Positions 9,435 through 63,816 of a stretch of 64,000 bases of DNA are shown one piece after another. This stretch comes from a virus. A model generated the notes under the pieces. It ran no database searches. It was given only the letters and a program-made list of their open reading frames with translations, and had not been told where the DNA came from. Location: the IMG/VR virus record IMGVR_UViG_3300049434_000014, positions 32,001-96,000 of that record; one strand, written 5' to 3'. How positions within the stretch are numbered: the stretch's first letter is position 1; every line of letters starts with the position of its first letter. Both the position numbers and the translations under genes were made by a program.

Positions 9435-9568
9435 AGTGACGTGCTGAAGGAGCGGCCTACTTCGGATAAATCACTGGTCTCAAAAATCGGTGATGAGTTG
9501 GGTTCGATATCCCAACAACCCAGCGGGCGACTGCTGGGATTAGGCTGAGCCACATGGTTGCCGTCACT
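9435..9568 (+). ncRNA. Y-RNA-like (YrlA-type) RNA with tRNA-like domain, copy 3
   Basis: AGTGACG/CGTCACT helix; TGCTGAAG...TACTTC; anticodon-like arm TCACTGGT-CTCAAAA-ATCGGTGA; T-arm GTTGGG-TTCGATAT-CCCAAC. Confidence 0.75.
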
Positions 9569-9589
9569 TCCTACAAGGAGATGAATCCA

Positions 9590-11278
9590 ATGTCTAAGTT
9601 CGAGAGCACGCTGCGTAATCGTGGTTTGACGTCTGCAATCACTACGTTGGACGGTTCTGACCTTTCTACTTATAATGGCGCTCCTGGCTTTGAGCGCGAT
9701 GCGCAGAGCGAGTTGCTGTTGCTCGCCTCGCAGTTCATGGTCAATGAAAAGACTTACTACGAGAATGATGTCGATCGTCGGACTCGTTTCAACATGCTTA
9801 TTTGGATCTGTGCTGTTGAGGCTGAAGACTGGACGGTCGACTTCCTGCGTTGGCTGCGCTGTGATGCCAACATCCGTTCCGCGTCTATCGCGGGTGCGTG
9901 CGAGTTTGTGCATGGCCGTTGGTTCGTCAACGACGAGCTGGCTATGCGCTCTAAGCCGCTGCGTAAGTTCAATGCCTCCCTAGGACGCCAGGTCGCCGAT
10001 CTGGTCTGTCAGCGTGGCGATGAGCCTGCAGAGCTGCTGGCCTACTGGGTGTCGACCTACGGCAAGCCGATCCCTGCTGCGATCCGTCGTGGCGCGGGTG
10101 ATGCTGCAACGCGTCTGTACACTGAGTTCAATGCTGGCAAGTACGATGGTAATCGTCGTGCCTTCCGTATGGGAGACTTGCTGCAGTTGTCTCGCCCTTG
10201 CCCCACGTCGCCTGCTCAGAGCGGTTTGTTCAAGGGTCTTATTGCCGACCGTCTGGGAATCACTGAGGATACGCATCCTGATTTGAAGATGCGTTTAATG
10301 CGTGAGGCTCTGTTTTCGTACCCAGTCGAGATTCGTCGTGACTTTGTGAAGGCTTCTGTTGCACGAGCGTCGGAGGCATTTAAGGCAGCTGGTTTCGTGT
10401 GGGAAGATGTCGCGGGTTGGCTGCAGGGTCCGATGGATAAGACTGCGTGGGAAGCGTGCGTCCCGATCATGGGTGTGTTCGCTCTGCTGCGGAATCTGCG
10501 CAACTTTGACGAGGTCGGTGTTTCTGATGAGGTGGTACAGAAGGTCTGTGAAAAGATCTCGGAGACTGAGGCCGTATGTCGTGCTCGGGTGTTCCCAATG
10601 CGGTTCCTATCTGCGTACCGTGCGGCTCCGTCGCTTCGTTGGAGTTGGGCTTTGGAGCGTGGCATGGCCGCGTCGTTGTCGCTCTTGCCGACTCTACGAG
10701 GCCGGTCGCTACTTCTGATTGATTCATCGGATTCGATGTATGAGTCAATCTCTGAGGATTCGGAGTTGATGTTCTCAGACAATGCGAAGGCGTTTGGTCT
10801 CGCGCTGGCGAAGCGGATCCTCGAGTCTGGTCGTGGTGACTCGGTTGACGTGGTGTCGTTTTCCTCGACTCCAACCTGGGGACCGAAGATGGGCGCGGTT
10901 CCGTCAAGGGTCTTCACTCCTCGTTTGGGCGAGTCGGTGTTGGCGGCTCTCGCTCGGTGGGAGAATGAGGGTTTGGATTTGCGGTGGGGCACGGACACGA
11001 TTGGTGCGGTGAATCGTCATTACCATTCGCACGATCGAGTCATTGTCTTGACTGATGCACAGGCTGATGACCATCCGGCTGAGCATGTGTTCGCTGCGAT
11101 TCCAGATCGTGTCCCGTGCTATACGTACAATCTGGTCGGCTACCGGGCTGGCCATGCTCCGTCCGGTGTCAAGAATCGTCACGAGCTTTCGGGCTTGAGC
11201 GATGCTTCTTTCACCATCATGTCTGCGCTCGAGGCTCATGGGTCCGGGCGCTGGCCGTGGGAGCATGCTGTCGCGTGA
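9590..11278 (+). CDS. rsr: Ro60/TROVE-domain RNA-binding protein with C-terminal vWA domain
   Basis: G.PGF.RD..SEL.LLA, QRGDEPAELLAYW, ALLRNLRNFD, RVFPMRFLSAY and vWA DSSDSM/GTD/VLTD motifs; AAGGAG RBS favours ATG 9590 (the track start 9554 lies inside the RNA). Confidence 0.9.
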   Translation: MSKFESTLRNRGLTSAITTLDGSDLSTYNGAPGFERDAQSELLLLASQFMVNEKTYYENDVDRRTRFNMLIWICAVEAEDWTVDFLRWLRCDANIRSASIAGACEFVHGRWFVNDELAMRSKPLRKFNASLGRQVADLVCQRGDEPAELLAYWVSTYGKPIPAAIRRGAGDAATRLYTEFNAGKYDGNRRAFRMGDLLQLSRPCPTSPAQSGLFKGLIADRLGITEDTHPDLKMRLMREALFSYPVEIRRDFVKASVARASEAFKAAGFVWEDVAGWLQGPMDKTAWEACVPIMGVFALLRNLRNFDEVGVSDEVVQKVCEKISETEAVCRARVFPMRFLSAYRAAPSLRWSWALERGMAASLSLLPTLRGRSLLLIDSSDSMYESISEDSELMFSDNAKAFGLALAKRILESGRGDSVDVVSFSSTPTWGPKMGAVPSRVFTPRLGESVLAALARWENEGLDLRWGTDTIGAVNRHYHSHDRVIVLTDAQADDHPAEHVFAAIPDRVPCYTYNLVGYRAGHAPSGVKNRHELSGLSDASFTIMSALEAHGSGRWPWEHAVA

Positions 11279-13882: not shown

Positions 13883-14094
13883 CAAAGGCTAAAGACAATC
13901 TCGTGACTGCGGTCGCTGAAGCGTTGGCTTCTACCGCGATGCGTACAAAGGAAAATGATTTCCAGTCACATCAGTTTCGGTTCTACTCACTTCCCCATGA
14001 TGCACGCTTTCAGCATGTGGAGCGGGCAAAGACTATTGTTGATCGTCTTCTGATGGAGGGTGCTGTTCAGCTTCCTGTGGAGACTTCAGCATGA
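13879..14094 (+). CDS. hypothetical protein
   Basis: Overlapping start/stop coupling on both sides. Confidence 0.55.
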   Translation: MTKAKDNLVTAVAEALASTAMRTKENDFQSHQFRFYSLPHDARFQHVERAKTIVDRLLMEGAVQLPVETSA

Positions 14095-15284
14095 TCTCAA
14101 CAGACAATCCAGTCACGCTGTTGCATGGTGCTGTTGAAGACGCGCTTGCTTTCATTCCTGACAATAGCGTTGATGCTGTTGTGACTGATCCTCCTTATGC
14201 TTTGAGTATGGGTGGTGGAACAAGTCACTGGGATACGTATTCAGCTAAAGAGTTTGCTGCGTGGTGTGAGTTGTGGTCGACGGAGTGTCTGCGTATCGCT
14301 AAGCCGGGTTCGTGGATGCTCGCTGCGTCGTCGGCGCGGACGTCGCATCGGCTGCGCCAAGGCATGGAGGATGCGGGCTGGGCCATCATTGACGAGATCG
14401 ACTGGATCTATCCTGTCTCGCTGCACCGGGCTATTGATCTCCCGACTCGCCTTGCTCTGGCCAACGCTGATCCTGCGTTGATCGAGTCGATGGTGGGCAG
14501 GTCGACGTCGATCAAGTCGCGTCGTGAGCCGTTTGTGTTGGCGCGTGCGCCTCTCGAGCGGTCTTTGCTGAACACGGTGACCACCTACGGCACTGCGACG
14601 CTTGACGTTGATTCTACGGCCTCTGAGTCGGGTTCCTGGCCATGCAACGTGGTGTTCTCGCACCACGAGGAGTGCACCAAGGACGGGCGCTGCATCCCTG
14701 GCTGTCCTGTGGCTGATCTCGGAATCAATGCTCCGTTGTTTCCTGCGTTCTACTGGTGCGATAAGCCATCGACGGGCGAGCGACCTAAGGTCGAAGTAGA
14801 GATTGGTGAGGGAACGGGTAAGCTTTCAACGATTGGTGAGGTTCGTCGTTGGAAGTGCAAAGTGTGTCAGGCTGTTACGCATTCGTATATGAAGAAGGGT
14901 TCTACCTATTCATCTGTCCCACATAAGGTTTGTTCTCACTACGATGAGGATCCCGCTAATTATGTACCATTGAAGCAGAATGATTACGTTTCGGAGATCT
15001 CTCATAACACGGTTAAGCCTCTGAACCTGATGAGGTGGTTCATCCGTCTGGTCTCGAAGCCTGGGGATACGATCTTGGAACCGTTTTTAGGGAGCGGAAC
15101 CACAGCTGAGGCTGCTGTGATTGAACGTCGCAGGGTCATCGGTGTTGAACGTGATGCCTCATCGGTAGAACTAACTAGGTCACGGCTACGTCGAGTGCAG
15201 TGCTCGCGGCTGGACAGGGTTGTGCTGAGGGAGGCTGACAATGGACGTGAAGTACCCGGAGATCGAGGTACAGCTGTCGGGTGA
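14091..15284 (+). CDS. DNA N6-adenine/N4-cytosine methyltransferase (beta class)
   Basis: VTDPPY motif IV precedes H.TVKP..LM..L and PFLGSGTT motif I. Confidence 0.9.
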   Translation: MISTDNPVTLLHGAVEDALAFIPDNSVDAVVTDPPYALSMGGGTSHWDTYSAKEFAAWCELWSTECLRIAKPGSWMLAASSARTSHRLRQGMEDAGWAIIDEIDWIYPVSLHRAIDLPTRLALANADPALIESMVGRSTSIKSRREPFVLARAPLERSLLNTVTTYGTATLDVDSTASESGSWPCNVVFSHHEECTKDGRCIPGCPVADLGINAPLFPAFYWCDKPSTGERPKVEVEIGEGTGKLSTIGEVRRWKCKVCQAVTHSYMKKGSTYSSVPHKVCSHYDEDPANYVPLKQNDYVSEISHNTVKPLNLMRWFIRLVSKPGDTILEPFLGSGTTAEAAVIERRRVIGVERDASSVELTRSRLRRVQCSRLDRVVLREADNGREVPGDRGTAVG

Positions 15285-23770: not shown

Positions 23771-23912
23771 ATTGCGATACTTCCTTACCGGCTGCATCTT
23801 CATCTTGATGAACGTTCCTGCTCCCGACGACCTTCGACTTGACATGCATGGTCGTGTATGGTTGGGTAGTACTAGACAAGGTTGCAAGGTCGAGCGAGAA
23901 GGCGGTAAAGCC

Positions 23913-25139
23913 ATGCAGGTTACGGAGTTGTTCTCCAATGAGGCGCTTGGGGAGATGGTTGCTGCGGGTTATGTGCGTATGCAGCGGCATCCTCGTTTCC
24001 ACGATGGCGTCCCTTACGTCATCTTCAATTACACGGAGACCGCTGCTTACGAGCGTGTGTGGAATCCGGTCACTGAGGTGTGTCGTGGCTTGATTGTGAA
24101 CAACGCGACGCTCGAGGTTGTCGCACGTCCGTTCCGTAAGTTCTTTAATTACGGTGAGCCTGGCTCTCCTGTTCTCCATATGGATGAGGGTGCGGACGTC
24201 TATGACAAACTAGACGGCTCGCTCGGCATTCTTTACCAGCTTCCTGATGGCGAATATGCGATTGCCACGCGCGGTTCGTTTGATTCCGAGCAGGCTCGCC
24301 ACGCCACAAAGGTGTGGCAGGATCGCTACGCGGGCAAGTTCACTCCCTATCCTGGCGGCACTTATCTGTTTGAGATCATCTATCGTGCCAATCGCATTGT
24401 CTGCGACTATGGGGACATGGACGATCTCGTGTTGCTCGGTGCTGTCGACATTGAGACTGGTGTTTCTTTTACGCCTCACGAGGGTGAGGCGATTGGTGAG
24501 TGGCCTGGCCCTAAGGCTGAGATGTTTCAGTACTGGTCGCTGGCAGCTGCTCTGGCAGCGCCTCCCCGTCCGGGTAAGGAGGGCTTCGTCCTTCGGCGTT
24601 GGCATTCCGAGGATCGCATTAAGATCAAGCAGGATGATTACGTTGCGTTGCACCGGATCATTACGAATTGCACGGCGCGTCGGATCTGGGAATACCTCGC
24701 GGTGTTCGCTTGCCAACCTTATGCGACAACGGGCGTTGAGTTCTTAGTGCGTAAGTTGATGATGGGTCCTGCTGACATTAATCGGATCCTCGCGGTTGGC
24801 TCTAACTGGCTGGAGACTTTCCTGGTTGGTACTCCGGAGGAGTTTCGTGATTGGGTGCAGGACAAGGTGTGGGAATTCCTTAGGGCTCGCACGTCGCGTT
24901 TGCAGGATCTGGAGTTGTCTTTGCATCTGATGTTGGCTACAGCGGATGTCCCTCGCTCTGCGGTCGGCGGTCCGTCTCGTGAAGAGGCTAAGGCGTTCGC
25001 CGCAGCGGGTCGGTCTCATCCTGATTTTCAGCTGCTTATGACCATGCTTCGTGGCCATGAGATCGAGTCGACTATTTGGCGTGAGCTGCGCCCTGCCCAC
25101 GAGCTTCCTTACCGGGCAGTGGATGAGTCTGTGGCTTAG
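23913..25139 (+). CDS. T4 Rnl1-like RNA ligase
   Basis: CRGLI, ARPF.KFFNY.E, KLDGSLG (motif I), ATRGSF.S, FEII, EGFV (IV) and KIK (V). Confidence 0.92.
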   Translation: MQVTELFSNEALGEMVAAGYVRMQRHPRFHDGVPYVIFNYTETAAYERVWNPVTEVCRGLIVNNATLEVVARPFRKFFNYGEPGSPVLHMDEGADVYDKLDGSLGILYQLPDGEYAIATRGSFDSEQARHATKVWQDRYAGKFTPYPGGTYLFEIIYRANRIVCDYGDMDDLVLLGAVDIETGVSFTPHEGEAIGEWPGPKAEMFQYWSLAAALAAPPRPGKEGFVLRRWHSEDRIKIKQDDYVALHRIITNCTARRIWEYLAVFACQPYATTGVEFLVRKLMMGPADINRILAVGSNWLETFLVGTPEEFRDWVQDKVWEFLRARTSRLQDLELSLHLMLATADVPRSAVGGPSREEAKAFAAAGRSHPDFQLLMTMLRGHEIESTIWRELRPAHELPYRAVDESVA

Positions 25140-27785: not shown

Positions 27786-28184
27786 ATGTTTGATCTAGAA
27801 CAGCCCGCGATCGGCGGCACTTTCTTTGAAGAGGAGTGTGCGCTGATTGCGGGCTGTTTGCCGTCGTCATGGCGTGCGATGGTGTCTCGCCACGGTGCTC
27901 CCCCTTCCCGTGGCTTTTGTTCTGAGACAGGCCGTCGTGTCTGGGATGCTCCTGAGGTCTTGCGTTGGCAGGCGTCGCGTCCGGGCTCAGGCAACTGGTC
28001 GCGCGGGCATGCCCGTTCCCAGCCTTCTACGCGGTTACGGGCCTATGCTTTGGGCAACGAGCCTGCCTGGCGCCTACCTACTCCTCGCGTCCGTACGCGG
28101 GCTTCTAGGCCGCGTCGACGTCCATGGTTGACCCCACGCGTTCCTTCTCTGTCTAGCCGGGTGGCGTCGAATACTGAGGAGTGA
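27786..28184 (+). CDS. putative HTH (AlpA/MerR-like) DNA-binding protein
   Basis: CALIAG....SWR..VSR..AP.......RVWD..EV..W...RPG.G pattern. Confidence 0.55.
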   Translation: MFDLEQPAIGGTFFEEECALIAGCLPSSWRAMVSRHGAPPSRGFCSETGRRVWDAPEVLRWQASRPGSGNWSRGHARSQPSTRLRAYALGNEPAWRLPTPRVRTRASRPRRRPWLTPRVPSLSSRVASNTEE

Positions 28185-28212
28185 GTGACGCACGCGCAGG
28201 GTGGTGTGTGTC

Positions 28213-28560
28213 ATGACCGTGCTCGTGATACCGGCTGGCACGACGTGGGCATGGGCCTTCCCTATTACTAATCCCAGCGGCGGTCCGGTGGATCTGACCG
28301 GCTGGTCTGCTCGCGCTCAGGTTCGTGCGAATAAATGGGTTCGTGACTTGCCTGTCCTTCATGAATGGACAACTGCCGGTCCTTCACCCAATGCGTCATT
28401 AGCTGATTCGCAGCTCATTCTCATTGTTGATGGCGCGACTTCATCTGCCTGGACGTGGTGGGCTGGCGTTTATGACATTGAGCTGACTGATGATACTGGT
28501 CGTGTCGCTCGTTTGGATCAAGACGATGTATTAGTCACTCCTGAGGTGACTCATGACTAG
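28213..28560 (+). CDS. tail/baseplate-associated Ig-like protein (BppU-like)
   Basis: G.T.......PVDLTG.SARAQVR and G.YDIEL motifs. Confidence 0.7.
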   Translation: MTVLVIPAGTTWAWAFPITNPSGGPVDLTGWSARAQVRANKWVRDLPVLHEWTTAGPSPNASLADSQLILIVDGATSSAWTWWAGVYDIELTDDTGRVARLDQDDVLVTPEVTHD

Positions 28561-29023
28561 TCCTCCGTCTGTGATTGAGTTTGTAAAGGTCGGCGGTCCA
28601 CACGTTGTGAGTTTCGTTGTGGAAGGATCGCCGCTATCTCTTGATTGGGTGCATCACGAGCCTCCTGTGTTCGTTGGCGACCCTCCTCCTGCTCCTGAGG
28701 TGCTGTCTTTGGACGCGCTCACGGACGTCGACGGGGCAGCGCTTGCCCCGGTCGGTGATGTGCTTGCGAAGGCTTCTGACGGCCAATGGCGTCCGGTCGC
28801 TCCGTTGGTTGGAGCTGCTCCGGAGAGCTTTCGCTTTAACCAGCTCATCCCTGCAGCGGTGTGGACGATTAGCCACAATCTCGGTCGTTTCCCAGTGACG
28901 GTCACATTACATAGTGCTGACTTGTCTGTTGAATATGATGAGTTTCTTGTTCAGCATTTAAGCATTAATTCATTGCGAGTGTCGATGGATACTCCTACTG
29001 CCGGTGCTGCGCTACTGATTTAA
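28553..29023 (+). CDS. minor tail protein
   Basis: LDALTDVD; F.Q..PA.VWTI.HNLG..P motif. Confidence 0.7.
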   Translation: MTSPPSVIEFVKVGGPHVVSFVVEGSPLSLDWVHHEPPVFVGDPPPAPEVLSLDALTDVDGAALAPVGDVLAKASDGQWRPVAPLVGAAPESFRFNQLIPAAVWTISHNLGRFPVTVTLHSADLSVEYDEFLVQHLSINSLRVSMDTPTAGAALLI

Positions 29024-29033
29024 GGAGTATTCA

Positions 29034-29930
29034 GTGACTGCTGGACCGAAGGCCATCAGCCATAAGGATATGGGTGGCCTCCAGATTAAGAATCTGGCTG
29101 ACGGCACCTTATCGACTGACGGTTACACCAAAGGTCAGGGTGACACTGCTTATACGAATGCAATCTCGCGAGCCAATCATACGGGTACGCAGCTTGCTGC
29201 CACTATCTCTGACTTTGATACTCAGGTTCGGACGTCTCGCCTGGATCAGATGTCTGCGCCGACTGGTGCATTGTCTGTTAACAACCAGCGGATCACCAAT
29301 GCTGGCTCAGCGACAACGGATACGGATGCTGCGCAATGGGGTCAGGTTAAAGACCTGATCTCTGGTCTGCGTAAGACTGACGTCCGCATTGTCACCACGA
29401 CTAACGATACGCTGAATGGTCTTGCTGCTCGGGATGGCATTACTCCTATCGCTGGCGATCGTGTGTTGGCTACAGGTCAGACTGCTGCTACGGCAAATGG
29501 TATTTATGTCGCCGCTGCGGGTGCGTGGTCTCGAGCCACAGATGCTGATGTGGCAGCGGAATTTGCTACTCAATGGTTGGTGACGGTTCGTGAAGGAACT
29601 GTCAATGGTGATACGTTGTGGCAGCATAACACTGATGGTGTTGTGACGCTTGGCACCACTTCTCTTGTGTTCAATAAGATTGGTCCTATCTCAGCCCCAT
29701 CTGCCACGGGTTATACAACTACTTCTCCTGTTGTCACGGCTGGCGGAACGTGGACAGTCACACATAATCTAGGTTCTCGTTATGTGTTGGCTCAGGTTGC
29801 ACGAGTCGCTTCTCCGTATGACATTGTCGATGTTCGTATGGAACGAACCACCACCAATACTGTTTCTGTGCTTCCTGATGTTGCGATGGCGAGTGGTGAG
29901 TACGAGATAATGGTTCAGAAGGTTGCCTGA
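29034..29930 (+). CDS. minor tail/tail fibre protein
   Basis: RANHTGTQ.A.TISDF, GDRVL...QT.A..NGIY.A.AGAW.RA.D and VTHNLG motifs. Confidence 0.8.
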   Translation: MTAGPKAISHKDMGGLQIKNLADGTLSTDGYTKGQGDTAYTNAISRANHTGTQLAATISDFDTQVRTSRLDQMSAPTGALSVNNQRITNAGSATTDTDAAQWGQVKDLISGLRKTDVRIVTTTNDTLNGLAARDGITPIAGDRVLATGQTAATANGIYVAAAGAWSRATDADVAAEFATQWLVTVREGTVNGDTLWQHNTDGVVTLGTTSLVFNKIGPISAPSATGYTTTSPVVTAGGTWTVTHNLGSRYVLAQVARVASPYDIVDVRMERTTTNTVSVLPDVAMASGEYEIMVQKVA

Positions 29931-53515: not shown

Positions 53516-53560
53516 GTTGGGTAGTACTGGTTGTCATTCAATCTGGAAGGAGGGACTGTC

Positions 53561-53842
53561 ATGGATTGGCGCCATCGTGCTGAGTGTCGCAACGAGGACC
53601 CAGAGCTGTTCTACCCTGCTGGCACCAGCGGTCCGGCCTTGCTCCAGATCGCCGAGGCTAAGGCTGTGTGTCGTCGGTGTCCTGTCGTCAACGAGTGCCT
53701 GAACTGGGCTATGAAGTCGGGCCAGGATTCCGGCGTCTGGGGCGGGATGGATGAAGGGGAGCGTCGGGTGCTTAAGCGTCGCAGGGCTGAGTGGACTCGT
53801 AAGCATGGCCGCGAGGCCGCTGAAGAGCTGACGTCTGTGTAG
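53561..53842 (+). CDS. whiB: WhiB-family Fe-S transcription factor (WhiB1-like)
   Basis: MDWRHRAEC..EDPELF.P.G.SGPALLQI.EAK.VC.RCPV...CL.WA...GQD.GVWGG..E.ERR. Confidence 0.95.
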   Translation: MDWRHRAECRNEDPELFYPAGTSGPALLQIAEAKAVCRRCPVVNECLNWAMKSGQDSGVWGGMDEGERRVLKRRRAEWTRKHGREAAEELTSV

Positions 53843-55562: not shown

Positions 55563-55948
55563 CTCGGTCAGCGGTCACTTTGAATTACGTTCGGGCTCAC
55601 GAGTTGGCAGCGCAGCGTCTGGAGACACAAGTTGACGTACTCTCGCTGCAGTGCAATGGCATGAAGCTGAAAGCTGCTCGCGGCAGTTCTATGTTCTCGG
55701 ATCCTGGGGACATGGCTGCGTATTACCTTATTGACGATTTGCGTAAGGCGTCGAAGACTTTGTTGAATTCAGCACAGGCGCATCGGGCGCGAGCTACTGC
55801 CTTCCTGAACGCTCCGTGTCCCGCTTGTCTTGCGGGCCAGCGTTCGCACTGTGCTAGTTGTGGATCGTGTGCTGTTGCAAATCGTGGTCCGTCGTGTCGG
55901 GATCTTGAGTGTGAGTTGGCGAGTTCTCGCGTGTCTGTTGATACGTGA
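55559..55948 (+). CDS. hypothetical protein, Cys-rich C-terminus
   Basis: ATGA coupling; CPAC..HC..C..C. Confidence 0.55.
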   Translation: MTRSAVTLNYVRAHELAAQRLETQVDVLSLQCNGMKLKAARGSSMFSDPGDMAAYYLIDDLRKASKTLLNSAQAHRARATAFLNAPCPACLAGQRSHCASCGSCAVANRGPSCRDLECELASSRVSVDT

Positions 55949-55961
55949 GGTATGATCGTTT

Positions 55962-56080
55962 CGACAAGTCAGTTCTTTACGCTTCGAGCCTTCCTGACAA
56001 GTCCAATCATGTCTTTTTCAGTTCGACTCGACTATTCTTGTCCATTCACCTCGCCTCGAGGCGTTTGACTTTTTCGTCCT
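55962..56080 (+). repeat. phased pentamer array 1 (3-4 units, YGACWR + (NYC-NN)n)
   Basis: Anchors at 55962, 55995, 56029 and 56066. Confidence 0.7.
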
Positions 56081-56098
56081 AAATGGGAGAATTCTGTT

Positions 56099-56302
56099 AT
56101 GGATCTACGTATTGGTGTCGCGGCTGTGGTTCTCGCTGTTGCAGCGCTTGTGTCTGGCGTCGCGTGGGGAAGTTCTGCGTCGACGTCTACGACTGTGTTG
56201 GCTTGTGGGGATACTCCTGGCTTCTGTCCTAATCCTCCGACGACGGCGCATGAATCGAACATGCGTGATGGGCAGATCGTCGGCGGGACTCACGATTTCT
56301 AG
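56099..56302 (+). CDS. small secreted protein
   Basis: Signal peptide; GGGAG RBS. Confidence 0.55.
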   Translation: MDLRIGVAAVVLAVAALVSGVAWGSSASTSTTVLACGDTPGFCPNPPTTAHESNMRDGQIVGGTHDF

Positions 56303-58357: not shown

Positions 58358-59311
58358 ATGGCAACGTCTGTACGGACCGACGAGCACCGCGAGGGTGTGC
58401 TGGTACCCGCGAACTACAGGTTTCGCGAGGTGCTGGATCTCTACGCTGGTGGACCCAAAGATGACGTGATCGCTCTGGCCAAGCAGGCAGCGGTCCCTCC
58501 GAGGTGGCTTCAGTTCGTAGAGCGTCAGCGCGCTCGGGTGAAGCAATACCAGGCTCGCGCAGTCGGCGATCGTCCTCGGTTGTCTCAGTGCAATATCTGT
58601 GGTGCGCACATTCGTTACGCGGTTGTGTGGGCATACAATCCCGAGCCGGGTGGTCACTTCGCTGGTTACATTACTACGGGTACTGACTGTGCCTCGTCCG
58701 TCAATGCTGCACTCGAGTCGGAGATTGCTTCTCAGGCTGGCGCTCTGCGTGAGTTCGTCGCTGGCATGCGTAAGCAGGCGCGGTCGGCTGCAGCGGCGCA
58801 CACGGAGCCTGCTGTGCCTGTTGAGGCGGCGTCACGGTGGTCTGCTGTGGATCGTCGTCGTCAGGCGTGGATCGCGGAGTCTAACGATCACTATCGGGTC
58901 GCGCACTTCCTGCACGCTGTGTCTGGTAACCACGCGGATCTCGGTTGCACTGGTAAATGTTTTCACTGTGACGTGACGGCTCAGTTGGTTGAGACCGGCT
59001 CGTTGTCGGAGCGTCAGGTTGAGGCTGTGCTGCGTTCTGTGCCTTCCTGGGAGGCGCATGGTCGGCTTCCTGAGCCTGCCTTCGAGATTCCTTCAGGTGA
59101 GACCACGATTACAGGCACGCTGGCTTCAGCGCGCAATGGGCACATGCTCATTAAGTGCAAGGGCTACCGTGTGTGGACGATTCCCCCGGAGGGTCTGCGG
59201 TCGGCTCAGACGGGTTCTCAGGTTCGGTTCACTGCTTATGTGGAGCCTTCCACGAAAGATCCTAAGTTTTTGATTGCTCGCGATGTTCGGGACGGAGAGG
59301 TTGTCGGTTGA
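58358..59311 (+). CDS. hypothetical protein with zinc ribbon and C-terminal OB-fold-like region
   Basis: CNICG..IRY....G.DC, G.LS.RQ..AV and G.R.TI.G....G..V.FTA.V motifs; promoter 58287. Confidence 0.65.
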   Translation: MATSVRTDEHREGVLVPANYRFREVLDLYAGGPKDDVIALAKQAAVPPRWLQFVERQRARVKQYQARAVGDRPRLSQCNICGAHIRYAVVWAYNPEPGGHFAGYITTGTDCASSVNAALESEIASQAGALREFVAGMRKQARSAAAAHTEPAVPVEAASRWSAVDRRRQAWIAESNDHYRVAHFLHAVSGNHADLGCTGKCFHCDVTAQLVETGSLSERQVEAVLRSVPSWEAHGRLPEPAFEIPSGETTITGTLASARNGHMLIKCKGYRVWTIPPEGLRSAQTGSQVRFTAYVEPSTKDPKFLIARDVRDGEVVG

Positions 59312-60196: not shown

Positions 60197-60670
60197 TGAC
60201 TGGTCATGTCCACTCTCGGTGACTCGCTACGTTACACTGCAGATCGACTACTCAATTCTGTTCAGGCCCGTTCGATTCATTTGACAACCCGGCACAGGCC
60301 CTCTCGCATCCATGCGACAATGCGAGTCTTGTCTCCCCCTGGCCCATGCCGACTGTCCGTCTCGCCTCCGTATCCCATCCTTTCCGTTCTGTGCCGACGA
60401 GCCAGCTCGATCCGGGTCTCTCCCACCCACCGACTAGTCTCTGCGGATCCTCCCGGGTCAGGTGACTCTGCCGATCTAGTCCCAGCGCATCATCTCGTGT
60501 CCGACTATCCGTATCCGTGCTTGTCGTTTCCAATCGACCAGTCAGTCCCGGTCAGTTCGTGCCTTGTTCCGACAGATCGCTGCTGTTCGTTTCCCGTCAG
60601 TGCGACGGACCGAGACTGTTCGCCTCCAATCAGTTCGACTACTCGACACAAGTCACCCCAAGGCCGACGA
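60197..60670 (+). repeat. phased pentamer array 2 (about 13-14 units)
   Basis: YGAC anchors at 60197, 60220, 60245, 60282, 60315, 60350, 60395, 60431, 60463, 60502, 60535, 60570, 60603, 60636 and 60665; C at every 5th base within units. Confidence 0.8.
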
Positions 60671-60686
60671 ACCGTTAGGACTAGTT

Positions 60687-61125: not shown

Positions 61126-61535
61126 CTAGGGTGTGGCGTGCTCATGGATTGCCTCACGGGCATGCGGATATTCCTAGGAAGATACGAACAGCTGATCATC
61201 GATTGTTTGAGCATTTTGATGGTAGTTTGTTTCGTGAGCTTTCTACGTCTCAGTGTAATTATAGGCACTGGGATGAGTTGGTGTTTCCTGTTTTTGAGGT
61301 CTCGGATGTTTCTCCAGAGGCGGTGTCTGCTTCTGCGGATGGTGTGCTCACGGGTGTGTGGATGTCTGGTCAGTTCTCGGACATCGACATGATTAACGAC
61401 ATCGCTGATTGGTTGTTGAAGACTAAGCTTCCTGTGTTGAACGTCAGTTTTGCTGCAGCGGTGGCGGATCGTATTCGTTACCTGCTAGAAAATGATGAGG
61501 AGACTCACCTGCTGCTAGGGAGAGAAGAGCTGTGA
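61122..61535 (+). CDS. hypothetical protein
   Basis: ATGA coupling. Confidence 0.55.
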   Translation: MTRVWRAHGLPHGHADIPRKIRTADHRLFEHFDGSLFRELSTSQCNYRHWDELVFPVFEVSDVSPEAVSASADGVLTGVWMSGQFSDIDMINDIADWLLKTKLPVLNVSFAAAVADRIRYLLENDEETHLLLGREEL

Positions 61536-61837
61536 GTGATCACAAGATCGTGGAGTTTCTGAATTTGTGCGTGTCGGCTGATGAGGCAACCGGGTTAGGT
61601 TCGCCGTGGGAGTTTATCTTCAAGCGACGCATCATTGTCATTCATGCCCCACGTAAAGACGATAATGAGCAGTGGGTGTGTGATGCGTGTTCGTGGATGC
61701 ATCCTGAGATACGTCAGATTGTTAATGCGTACGCACCTTGCGAGCATTTGCAGTATATGTCTATGATCTATTCTAAGCGGGCTGGGTTTGATCCGGATTG
61801 GATTCATGACGTGATCGGGTTCGCTGAGCTTCCCTAA
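61532..61837 (+). CDS. hypothetical protein (DUF6221-like)
   Basis: KRRII..H.....C..C.......PC..L..M...Y..R.GF.P.W motif. Confidence 0.6.
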   Translation: MSDHKIVEFLNLCVSADEATGLGSPWEFIFKRRIIVIHAPRKDDNEQWVCDACSWMHPEIRQIVNAYAPCEHLQYMSMIYSKRAGFDPDWIHDVIGFAELP

Positions 61838-61857
61838 TACTCCGGGTTTTCCGGATA

Positions 61858-62355
61858 TGACTACACTACTCCGATCCTTTCATGTCGTTGGCGAATCGTT
61901 CCCGTCCCGACTATTCGCCGCATGTCCCTTCGTGTCTTGCCAAGTCGACTATTCGTTTCGATCCCGGCCATTTCGTTTTGACTATTCGCATCGGATCCAG
62001 CTCCTATCGATTCGACTGATCTTGTCGACTACGCAAGTCAGTTCCGTTCTTTGCATTGCGACTTGTCGAGCCTGTCCGTGTCCGCGCGTATCGACTACCC
62101 GATCCAGTTCCGTCCTTTCCCGCTCTTTCCGACTACGCTCGTCTCATCCGGGCATGTCATCTCGACTACTCGATTCTTTCTCGTCGCTGCGGCTCTGTTC
62201 GACTACCCGGTTCGATACGGGACATCCCTGTCCGTTCTGACTACCCGTCTCCGTTCGCTTCTAGCCCAGTCCGTCTCGACAACCCATGTCGCGGCACTGC
62301 TCTTCTTTCCGTGACGACAGGCCAGTTCCAGTCTGTTCGTCTCTGTACGACATCA
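61858..62355 (+). repeat. phased pentamer array 3 (about 13 units)
   Basis: Anchors at 61858, 61908, 61946, 61979, 62013, 62026, 62059, 62092, 62130, 62163, 62200, 62238, 62277, 62315 and 62348; spacings mostly 33 or 38. Confidence 0.85.
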
Positions 62356-62375
62356 CACATCGGGTAGGAGTTGGG

Positions 62376-62579
62376 ATGTATACGTTTTCTGAGGGTGTGT
62401 TGATTACGGATGACATGATTGAGCGTGACGATTCGATCGAGCCTCGCGCGGGTCAGCCTTGCTGGTGTCCTGATTCGTTTATCGAGGCGTGTTTTTACGT
62501 GCGGTATTGCCCGCGCCACGGGTCGGTTCCTGATCAGGATCTCTGGAATTTCAGGGTTGCTCCATACGGGATCTCATAG
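62376..62579 (+). CDS. hypothetical protein
   Basis: ATG 8 nt after GGGTAG. Confidence 0.5.
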   Translation: MYTFSEGVLITDDMIERDDSIEPRAGQPCWCPDSFIEACFYVRYCPRHGSVPDQDLWNFRVAPYGIS

Positions 62580-63547: not shown

Positions 63548-63617
63548 CGTTCCGTGGTGTAGGGATAGCACGCCGGTCACGGGACCGGTAGTCCACGTTT
63601 AACTCGTGGCGGAACGA
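63548..63617 (+). tRNA. tRNA-like gene with non-canonical anticodon loop (identity undetermined)
   Basis: CGTTCCG/CGGAACG acceptor; CCGGT-CACGGG-ACCGG (6-nt loop); CCACG-TTTAACT-CGTGG. Confidence 0.6.
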
Positions 63618-63664
63618 CGCACGGCCTAGGATCGCCTCTGCTTCGGGCATGCGCCTAGGTCTCT

Positions 63665-63738
63665 CGGGATGTAGGGAAGCCAGGTATCCCACCTGTTTTG
63701 GGTACAGGAAGCCGCAGGTTCGAATCCTGCCGTCCCGA
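63665..63738 (+). tRNA. tRNA-Pro(TGG)
   Basis: CGGGATG/CGTCCCG; CCTGT-TTTGGGT-ACAGG; GCAGG-TTCGAAT-CCTGC. Confidence 0.9.
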
Positions 63739-63740
63739 CT

Positions 63741-63816
63741 GGATGGATGTAGCTCAATGATAGAGCCCTTGGATTAACGTCTAAGGAGACGTGGGTTTGA
63801 TTCCCGCCACCATCCT
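63741..63816 (+). tRNA. tRNA-like gene with bulged acceptor stem and 8-nt anticodon loop (identity undetermined)
   Basis: TAGCTCAATGATAGAGC D-arm; CTTGG-ATTAACGT-CTAAG; GTGGG-TTTGATT-CCCGC. Confidence 0.6.

What the first reader, a model, noticed from the sequence alone, without database searches (positions are those of the whole stretch)
61858..62355. Pentamer array 3: the most regular array, with spacings quantised in steps of 5
Seen: anchor spacings 50, 38, 33, 34, 13, 33, 33, 38, 33, 37, 38, 39, 38, 33, with the anchor mostly CGACTA. The array fills the whole gap between two genes, and several overlapping low-complexity ORFs in different frames indicate non-coding DNA. Inference: unit length is constrained by the number of bound protein subunits (5-6 pentamers).
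Basis: seen in the sequence. Interest (0 to 1): 0.8.

Follow-up and report, generated by a model that had tools for sequence, protein, structure and literature searches.

The report
VIPR-type guide array in actinophage
This half-kilobase gene-free stretch of a large phage genome is a real array of 15 short units with a cytosine at every fifth base. It is best read as a set of guide RNAs for the phage's own CRISPR-related (Vipr/Cas7-like) protein, and so as a divergent form of the VIPR systems first described in 2026.

Summary
Window 61859-62363 holds 15 head-to-tail units, each GAC followed by NNNNC pentamers. Counted from each GAC, 78 of 90 pentamers end in C (p about 2e-25). Ten of 14 unit lengths are 5n+3, mostly 33 or 38 nt.

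Within a pentamer, letters 1-2 are at maximal entropy, letter 4 is mostly a pyrimidine and letter 5 is C. The same grammar fills at least six other gene-free stretches of this 153-kb phage. That gives 126 strict units on the + strand, 6 on the - strand and about 1.7 expected by chance.

The phage encodes a lone 252-aa Cas7-fold protein 12 kb downstream of array 3. A family profile built around it matches the phage SUSP1 Vipr family (hhalign 86%, E 5e-6). In 48 of 51 other viral contigs with a homologue, such units lie beside the gene on its strand.

Best reading: array 3 is a dispersed, tail-less array of VIPR-type guide units, with one protein subunit per pentamer. It differs from published VIPR in its code (xYC/NN rather than GGY/NN), its unit size (6-7 repeats), its GAC punctuation and its lack of a 3' tail. 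Expression and targets are untested. Earlier notes of this scan reached the VIPR reading for other arrays of this same genome.

The parts
61859..62363 (+). Array 3: 15 head-to-tail units, each GAC + n x (NNNNC). The GACs are at 61859, 61909, 61947, 61980, 62014, 62027, 62060, 62093, 62131, 62164, 62201, 62239, 62278, 62316 and 62349. These are candidate tail-less VIPR-type guide units.
   Evidence: 78 of 90 pentamers end in C. Ten of 14 lengths are 5n+3. The NN positions are at maximal entropy.
61532..61837 (+). Upstream flanking ORF (101 aa, no family match). Its stop codon lies 21 nt before the first GAC, so the array is probably co-transcribed with it.
   Evidence: No promoter-like site lies between this gene and the array.
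62376..62579 (+). Downstream flanking ORF (67 aa). A Shine-Dalgarno-like AGGAG at 62366-62370 abuts the last unit.
60245..60680 (+). Array 2: the same grammar, less regular. It overlaps a probably spurious 164-aa ORF.
   Evidence: 11 strict units.
55962..56085 (+). Array 1: a short array of the same grammar in the gap between the ORFs ending at 55948 and starting at 56099.
   Evidence: 3 strict units.

Best explanation
Array 3 is a dispersed, tail-less tandem array of VIPR-type guide-RNA units that serve the phage's own divergent Vipr (stand-alone Cas7-fold RAMP) protein. That gene lies at genome 106228-106986, 12 kb downstream of the array and outside the window.

Proposed mechanism (inferred):
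- The + strand is transcribed together with the flanking small genes.
- Vipr-like protomers coat the RNA, one per pentamer. They clamp the x-Y-C triplet and expose the two free letters (NN).
- The extra GAC triplet shifts the register by 3 nt. This punctuates the RNA into mini-filaments of 6-7 protomers, about one helical turn each. The units may also be cut apart there.
- Each unit then presents a 12-14-letter gapped code that recognises DNA of a competing element or of the host and silences it.

Shown here: the grammar, its genome-wide distribution, the Cas7 fold, the remote homology to Vipr, and the association and co-orientation of arrays with the gene.

Inferred: transcription, binding, processing and targeting.
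For: Grammar and statistics.

Strand and clustering: there are 126 strict units on the + strand and 6 on the - strand, against 1.65 expected. All but two of the + strand units lie in seven clusters.

The protein: the 252-aa protein has no Pfam or PHROG hit. Its AlphaFold model (pLDDT 76.7) finds only Cas7/Csm3 chains at the top of the PDB list (E 2.5e-7). In BFVD it finds viral RAMP proteins.

Homology to Vipr: a family profile against the SUSP1-Vipr family profile gives hhalign probability 86%, E 4.9e-6, over 153 columns. The alignment spans helix-1 and the G-loop.

G-loop residues: the two residues that read the guanines in SUSP1 Vipr are replaced here. D177 becomes Ala in 33 of 34 sequences, and W178 becomes Ser or Thr in 29 of 34. 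The Arg that holds the pyrimidine (R179) is invariant (residue roles). This fits a code in which only the pyrimidine survives, and it fits + strand RNA.

Association: in 51 viral contigs with a homologue, units occur at 2.56 per kb within 2.5 kb of the gene on its strand, against 0.125 per kb farther away. Forty-eight of 51 loci have at least 3 such units.

Canonical orientation: SUSP1 vrRNAs lie on the vipr strand.

Fit with a protein-coated guide: the array has no excess RNA structure (z -0.6). It has no Rfam match and no Cas1 gene in the genome. The units are nearly all different from one another, and none is shared with a 146-kb relative beyond chance.
Against: - There are no expression or binding data.
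- No target was found under skip rules 0-3, either in the phage's own genome or in 0.9 Mb of related viral loci. The host is unknown.
- The fixed triplet is not GGY. Units are far shorter than the published 9-16 repeats, and there is no conserved structured 3' tail.
- Array 3 is 12 kb from the protein gene and sits inside an operon of small genes, with no promoter or terminator of its own.
- The homology to Vipr is remote. Probability is 86% profile against profile, but only 0.7% when the shallower profile A1 is compared with the single SUSP1 sequence.
- A code of 12-14 letters gives only marginal specificity in a large genome.
Confidence: 0.72

Rival explanations
1. The arrays are RNA tracks for the Cas7-like protein but are not guides. 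On this reading, filament assembly on the polycistronic mRNA acts in cis to process, stabilise or silence translation of the flanking small genes. Alternatively the arrays act as decoys or sponges that titrate a competitor's Vipr.
For: Arrays 1-3 sit between small genes with no promoter or terminator of their own. No target was found. A 12-14-letter code is short. Satellite-encoded vrRNAs that redirect VIPR to decoy sites are reported (abstract of 10.64898/2026.10.15.759431).
Against: The NN letters are at maximal entropy and almost every unit is unique. That is what a library of specificities predicts and is unnecessary for a cis track. The largest arrays (about 5 kb here, 4.1 kb in the relative) are not placed between genes that need regulating.
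Confidence: 0.12
2. The arrays work at the DNA level, as iterons, a centromere, or packaging or origin sites bound by a DNA-binding protein in a 5-bp register.
For: Direct repeats with a short conserved anchor and quantised spacing are typical of iterons and partition sites.
Against: The strand asymmetry is strong: C-G skew is 0.2, and there are 126 units on the + strand against 6 on the -. Orientation is fixed relative to an RNA-binding-fold gene in 48 of 51 loci. Spacings of 33 and 38 bp would put successive anchors on opposite faces of the helix. The arrays are dispersed over seven sites.
Confidence: 0.06
3. The stretch is a decayed pentanucleotide microsatellite, or a pyrimidine-rich Rho-loading (rut-like) spacer, with no unit-level function.
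For: The stretch is C-rich and G-poor, with YC dinucleotides, as rut sites are. There is no RNA structure.
Against: Decay would blur all five positions equally. Here C stays at 81-87% in one phase while NN is at maximal entropy. The GAC punctuation and the 5n+3 lengths are conserved in phages whose Vipr-like protein is only 28% identical. No periodicity of 5 is known for rut sites (my own knowledge, not tested here).
Confidence: 0.04

Closest known systems
Type II VIPR of Escherichia phage SUSP1 (Vipr + vap1 + vrRNAs). Sources: bioRxiv 10.64898/2026.04.26.720920 and 10.64898/2026.04.26.720927.
   Same: Both have a phage-encoded stand-alone RAMP with a G-loop and no Cas1. Both have non-coding arrays on the same strand with a strict 5-nt period, made of a fixed triplet and a hypervariable dinucleotide. 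One protomer per repeat would explain the quantised lengths. Neither shows self-targets.
   Different: - The triplet here is x-Y-C (only C fixed, Y at about 80%) rather than GGY.
- The G-reading residues D177 and W178 are replaced.
- Units have 6-7 repeats rather than 9-16.
- Units abut head to tail and are separated only by a GAC triplet, with no structured 3' tail or pseudoknot.
- The genome carries well over 100 units at seven sites, some tens of kb from the gene.
- The partner gene is a 187-aa helical protein with no recognisable fold.
Non-canonical VIPR-like clusters found by entropy periodicity (GAC/NN, CAC/NN, WGT/NN, TGH/NN). Source: bioRxiv 10.64898/2026.10.21.760802.
   Same: These are 5-nt arrays with alternative fixed triplets beside Vipr-like folds. 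GTC, the commonest triplet here, reads GAC/NN on the opposite strand, so this family may be one of those clusters.
   Different: That text states that the motifs repeat 10 times, whereas here each unit has 6-7 repeats in very long tandem arrays. I could not see the figures or cluster members, so identity with any of those clusters is untested.
Class 1 CRISPR backbones (Csm3/Cmr4 of type III, Cas7 of type VII) on crRNA.
   Same: The protein fold matches (Foldseek top hits), and both form a periodic protein filament on a guide RNA.
   Different: The period is 5 nt rather than 6. There are no repeat-spacer array, no Cas1 and no other cas genes beside the gene. The guide is read as gapped dinucleotides.

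Membership tests
VIPR (Vipr + vrRNA) | A stand-alone RAMP (RRM core, G-loop, thumb) outside any CRISPR-Cas locus. | tested here: met
   The 252-aa protein at genome 106228-106986 finds Cas7/Csm3 chains at the top of the Foldseek PDB list (E 2.5e-7) and viral RAMPs in BFVD. Its C-terminal motif GIGA[ST]RSxGFGRY aligns to the Vipr G-loop. The genome has no Cas1.
VIPR (Vipr + vrRNA) | Sequence homology of the protein to characterised Vipr (SUSP1 or X1U2U4 family). | tested here: inconclusive
   Profile against profile, hhalign gives probability 86%, E 4.9e-6, over 153 columns. The shallower profile A1 against the single SUSP1 sequence gives only 0.7%. The two phmmer hit lists, as far as listed (best 120 each), share no protein. 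Solved Vipr structures did not appear in the PDB copy searched.
VIPR (Vipr + vrRNA) | Arrays of 5-nt repeats made of a fixed triplet and a hypervariable NN. | tested here: met
   Lag-5 z is +9.5. NN entropy is 1.96-1.99 bits, and C is fixed in 87% of anchor-registered pentamers. The same pattern holds in related loci.
VIPR (Vipr + vrRNA) | Triplet consensus GGY, or the published variants NNNGG, YNNNG and NNNNG. | tested here: not met
   The triplet on the gene's strand is [G/T]-Y-C, with only C fixed. On the opposite strand it would read G-R-N. However, the arrays are co-oriented with the gene as in SUSP1, and the G-reading residues are absent.
VIPR (Vipr + vrRNA) | 9-16 repeats capped by a conserved, structured 3' tail (type II architecture). 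| tested here: not met
   Units have 6-7 pentamers after a GAC triplet and abut directly. There is no excess structure (z -0.6) and no ribozyme or other Rfam match. Tail-less 'staggered' arrays are mentioned in the paper, but I could not inspect them.
VIPR (Vipr + vrRNA) | Arrays flank the vipr gene on the same strand. | tested here: met
   Arrays lie at genome 104.9-105.3 kb and 107.0-107.4 kb, on either side of the gene. Forty-eight of 51 viral loci have at least 3 same-strand units within 2.5 kb of the gene, a 20-fold enrichment. Array 3 itself is a dispersed copy 12 kb away.
VIPR (Vipr + vrRNA) | An accessory vap gene next to vipr. | tested here: inconclusive
   A 187-aa protein lies just upstream of the gene in 36 of 51 loci. 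Its model is all-helical (pLDDT 87.8) and has no meaningful fold match (best Z 4.9) and no Pfam or PHROG hit.
VIPR (Vipr + vrRNA) | vrRNA is expressed, co-purifies with Vipr, and directs dsDNA binding by the 1-nt-skip rule. | not testable with these tools
   The only test possible was an in-silico target search, which was negative. Matches in the phage's own genome and in 0.9 Mb of related loci equal the permuted controls for skips 0-3.
CRISPR-Cas (class 1) | A repeat-spacer array with adaptation genes and other cas genes. | tested here: not met
   There are no direct repeats of CRISPR type, the period is 5 rather than 6, and there is no Cas1.

The most novel reading that the evidence does not exclude
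This actinophage lineage carries a distinct, uncharacterised VIPR type. It would read a pyrimidine-anchored code (x-Y-C/NN) instead of GGY/NN. It would use a bare GAC triplet as punctuation in place of a structured tail. And it would deploy mega-libraries of more than 100 one-turn mini-guides (12-14 code letters each), some embedded in polycistronic mRNAs. That would amount to a phage-borne programmable silencing library of far greater breadth than the handful of guides in known VIPR phages.
Probability: 0.4. Interest if true: 0.7.

Novelty: new variant of a known kind. Interest (0 to 1): 0.6.

Why it matters
VIPR systems were described only in 2026 and are proposed to predate CRISPR. Three things about this variant would interest people in that field.

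- A variant that keeps the 5-nt register but swaps the recognised triplet, with matching changes in the G-loop residues, is a natural experiment on how the protein reads its repeats.
- GAC-punctuated units of one helical turn suggest a minimal guide and a tail-free way to delimit guides.
- More than 100 distinct units in one lytic-looking 153-kb phage implies a very broad target repertoire.

Array 3 itself is compact and regular, so it would make a good test substrate for expression, processing and binding assays.

Tried and rejected
- **Global Fourier power at period 5** was flat, because each unit resets the phase by 3 nt. Autocorrelation and anchor-registered counts were used instead.
- **Tandem Repeats Finder** reported nothing in the array, since the units share grammar rather than sequence.
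- **Close DNA relatives:** blastn of the region against isolated phages found nothing. Helicase tblastn showed no close cultured relative.
- **Coding:** rejected, because there is no lag-3 signal and ORFs overlap in all three frames.
- **Structured RNA:** rejected, with z -0.6 on the + strand and 0.0 on the - strand and no Rfam hit.
- **Own promoter or terminator:** none beyond chance. No leader motif is shared between arrays, and GGGTACGAC occurs once only, upstream of array 2.
- **Self-targets and targets in relatives' vipr loci:** none above permuted controls for skips 0-3.
- **Guide codes shared with the 146-kb relative:** 2 pairs at 9 of 10 letters, against 0.7 expected.
- **Orthologous array in relatives:** the flanking small genes have no homologue in five large related records or in viral or metagenome contigs. 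Only the wider region is syntenic.
- **Fold of the 187-aa partner:** no informative match.
- **Tools and searches not used:** Searching large public collections for targets was not attempted, because a 12-14-letter code would give hundreds of chance matches.

Full report
**The observation**

Window 61857-62376 is C/T-rich (C 171, T 154, G 102 and A 71 of the 498 bases of the finding's span, 61858-62355). It has one of the two strongest C-over-G skews in the window.

The units share little sequence, so Tandem Repeats Finder sees nothing. They do share a grammar. C autocorrelation against shuffles is z = +9.5, +5.4 and +3.4 at lags 5, 10 and 15. At lag 3 it is -1.8, so the stretch is not coding.

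Looking at the letters around all anchors showed that the C just before GAC ends the previous unit's last pentamer. A unit is therefore GAC + n x NNNNC, which gives 33 nt for n = 6 and 38 nt for n = 7.

In that register, 78 of 90 pentamers of array 3 end in C, against a 33% background (p = 1.8e-25). Ten of 14 lengths are 3 mod 5 (p = 4.6e-5). Entropy per pentamer position is 1.96, 1.98, 1.82, 1.64 and 0 bits.

The array fills the gap between the stop at 61837 and the ATG at 62376. An AGGAG lies just after the last unit.

**Context in the genome**

The window is bases 32001-96000 of a complete 153,455-bp IMG/VR virus. The genes I saw are all on the + strand. It carries a WhiB-like gene and many tRNAs, and has no close cultured relative.

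A genome-wide scan finds the same phase signal at seven sites. Three are in the window (arrays 1-3). Two lie at 104.9-105.3 kb and 107.0-107.4 kb. A block of about 5 kb lies at 145.5-150.9 kb.

Strict units, defined as GAC(NNNNC)5, number 126 on the + strand and 6 on the - strand. Shuffles give 1.65. Almost all units differ in their NN letters.

**The partner protein**

I tested both leads.

The ORF at genome 106228-106986 (252 aa) has no Pfam, PHROG or PDB sequence match. It does have more than 900 homologues, those with a named source being from Streptomyces, Nocardiopsis and Actinomadura.

Its AlphaFold model (pLDDT 76.7) finds only Cas7/Csm3 chains at the top of the PDB list (E 2.5e-7; TM-score 0.43 by query length, 0.52 by target length). 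In BFVD it finds viral RAMPs.

I located the published SUSP1 VIPR locus in KT454805.2. It has a two-gene operon at 28031-29061 on the - strand, flanked by (GGY NN)n tracts on that same strand.

A profile of the present family against a profile of the SUSP1 Vipr family gives hhalign probability 86% and E 4.9e-6 over 153 columns. The shallower profile A1 against the single SUSP1 sequence was weak.

In the aligned G-loop, the canonical GxGD[W/Y]RPRFGRF becomes GIGA[S/T]RSxGFGRY. According to the structure paper, D177 and W178 read G1 and G2 and R179 holds the pyrimidine Y3. Here the two G-readers are gone and the Arg is invariant. This matches a code in which only the pyrimidine is fixed, and it places the RNA on the + strand. 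This residue-level reading is an inference from a remote alignment.

**Association**

Fifty-one viral contigs encode a homologue of 26-62% identity. Units of the same grammar lie within 2.5 kb of the gene on its strand at 2.56 per kb. Farther away the density is 0.125 per kb, and on the other strand near the gene it is 0.15 per kb. Forty-eight of 51 loci have at least three such units (examples).

NN is at maximal entropy in every group. Letter 4 is a pyrimidine in about 83% of pentamers in both the GC-rich group and the 146-kb relative, and is 'not G' in the most distant group.

A 187-aa helical protein lies just upstream of the gene in 36 of 51 loci. Its fold matches nothing informative.

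A 146-kb relative has a 4.1-kb array of about 130 units, with lengths of 27/28, 32/33 and 37/38 nt. It starts 2.9 kb downstream of the homologue of window gene 58358-59311. The small genes flanking array 3 are not conserved there. The two phages share no guide codes beyond chance.

**Mechanism**

The most likely mechanism is as follows. The + strand RNA is made by read-through from the upstream small genes, since there is no promoter or terminator of its own. It is unstructured and is coated by the Vipr-like protein, one protomer per pentamer.

The GAC triplet inserts 3 nt and breaks the register. This delimits filaments of 6-7 protomers, about one turn of the six-per-turn helix reported for Vipr. 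It may also mark a cleavage site.

The exposed NN letters then form a 12-14-letter gapped code for DNA recognition and silencing, as shown for canonical VIPR.

None of these steps is shown for this phage.

**Targets**

Searches with skip rules 0-3 found nothing above permuted controls, either in the phage's own genome or in 0.9 Mb of relatives' loci. This agrees with the published absence of self-targeting but leaves the targets unknown.

**Comparison and novelty**

The kind is known: VIPR, described in 2026 preprints. A later preprint already reports non-canonical triplets beside Vipr-like folds. The commonest triplet here, GTC, reads GAC/NN on the other strand, so this family may be among those clusters. 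I could not check the figures.

Four things differ from everything I could read in the text of those papers:
- the x-Y-C code with matching G-loop changes;
- units of 6-7 repeats;
- GAC punctuation without a tail;
- the scale and dispersal of the arrays.

I therefore rate it a new variant of a known kind. Array 3 is one dispersed array of that system, and a very regular one: the most regular of the three in the window.

**Limits**

Both metagenome scans came back empty. No host is known.

Noticed in passing
window 62027-62059 and 62093-62130: Over the first five pentamers, two units of array 3 share 9 of 10 NN letters but only 5 of 10 variable triplet letters. This looks like a duplicated guide that kept its code while the triplets drifted. 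Alone it is not significant: genome-wide, 2 pairs reach 9 of 10.
   Followed up: partly
genome 104349-104912 (L002:1350-1913), outside the window: A 187-aa all-helical protein is conserved just upstream of the Vipr-like gene in 36 of 51 viral loci. It has no Pfam, PHROG or fold match and is a candidate accessory (vap-like) protein.
   Followed up: partly
window 9554-11278 and 63686-63800: A 574-aa ORF hits phrog_850 'RNA-binding protein', which may be Ro60/TROVE-like (my guess). A sub-threshold YrlA (Y RNA-like) Rfam hit (28.2 bits, gathering score 69) lies inside the tRNA cluster.
   Followed up: no
window 63548-63618 and 63743-63814: ARAGORN calls a tRNA with an odd two-base anticodon at 63548-63618. 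Rfam finds a weak tRNA at 63743-63814 that ARAGORN does not list.
   Followed up: no
L056:13811-17901 (IMGVR_UViG_3300049324_000002): A 146-kb relative (49% GC) carries a single 4.1-kb array of about 130 GAC-initiated units. It lies in the region syntenic with arrays 2-3 and shares no guide codes with this phage beyond chance.
   Followed up: partly
window 61841-61855: A small hairpin-like CCGG-GTTTT-CCGG lies between the stop codon of the upstream gene and the first GAC. It has no T-run, so it is not terminator-like.
   Followed up: no
window 53531-53842, 23772-25139, 14091-15284: The window also holds a WhiB-like ORF, an RNA ligase-like gene next to two tRNA-Lys genes, and a DNA methyltransferase.
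   Followed up: no
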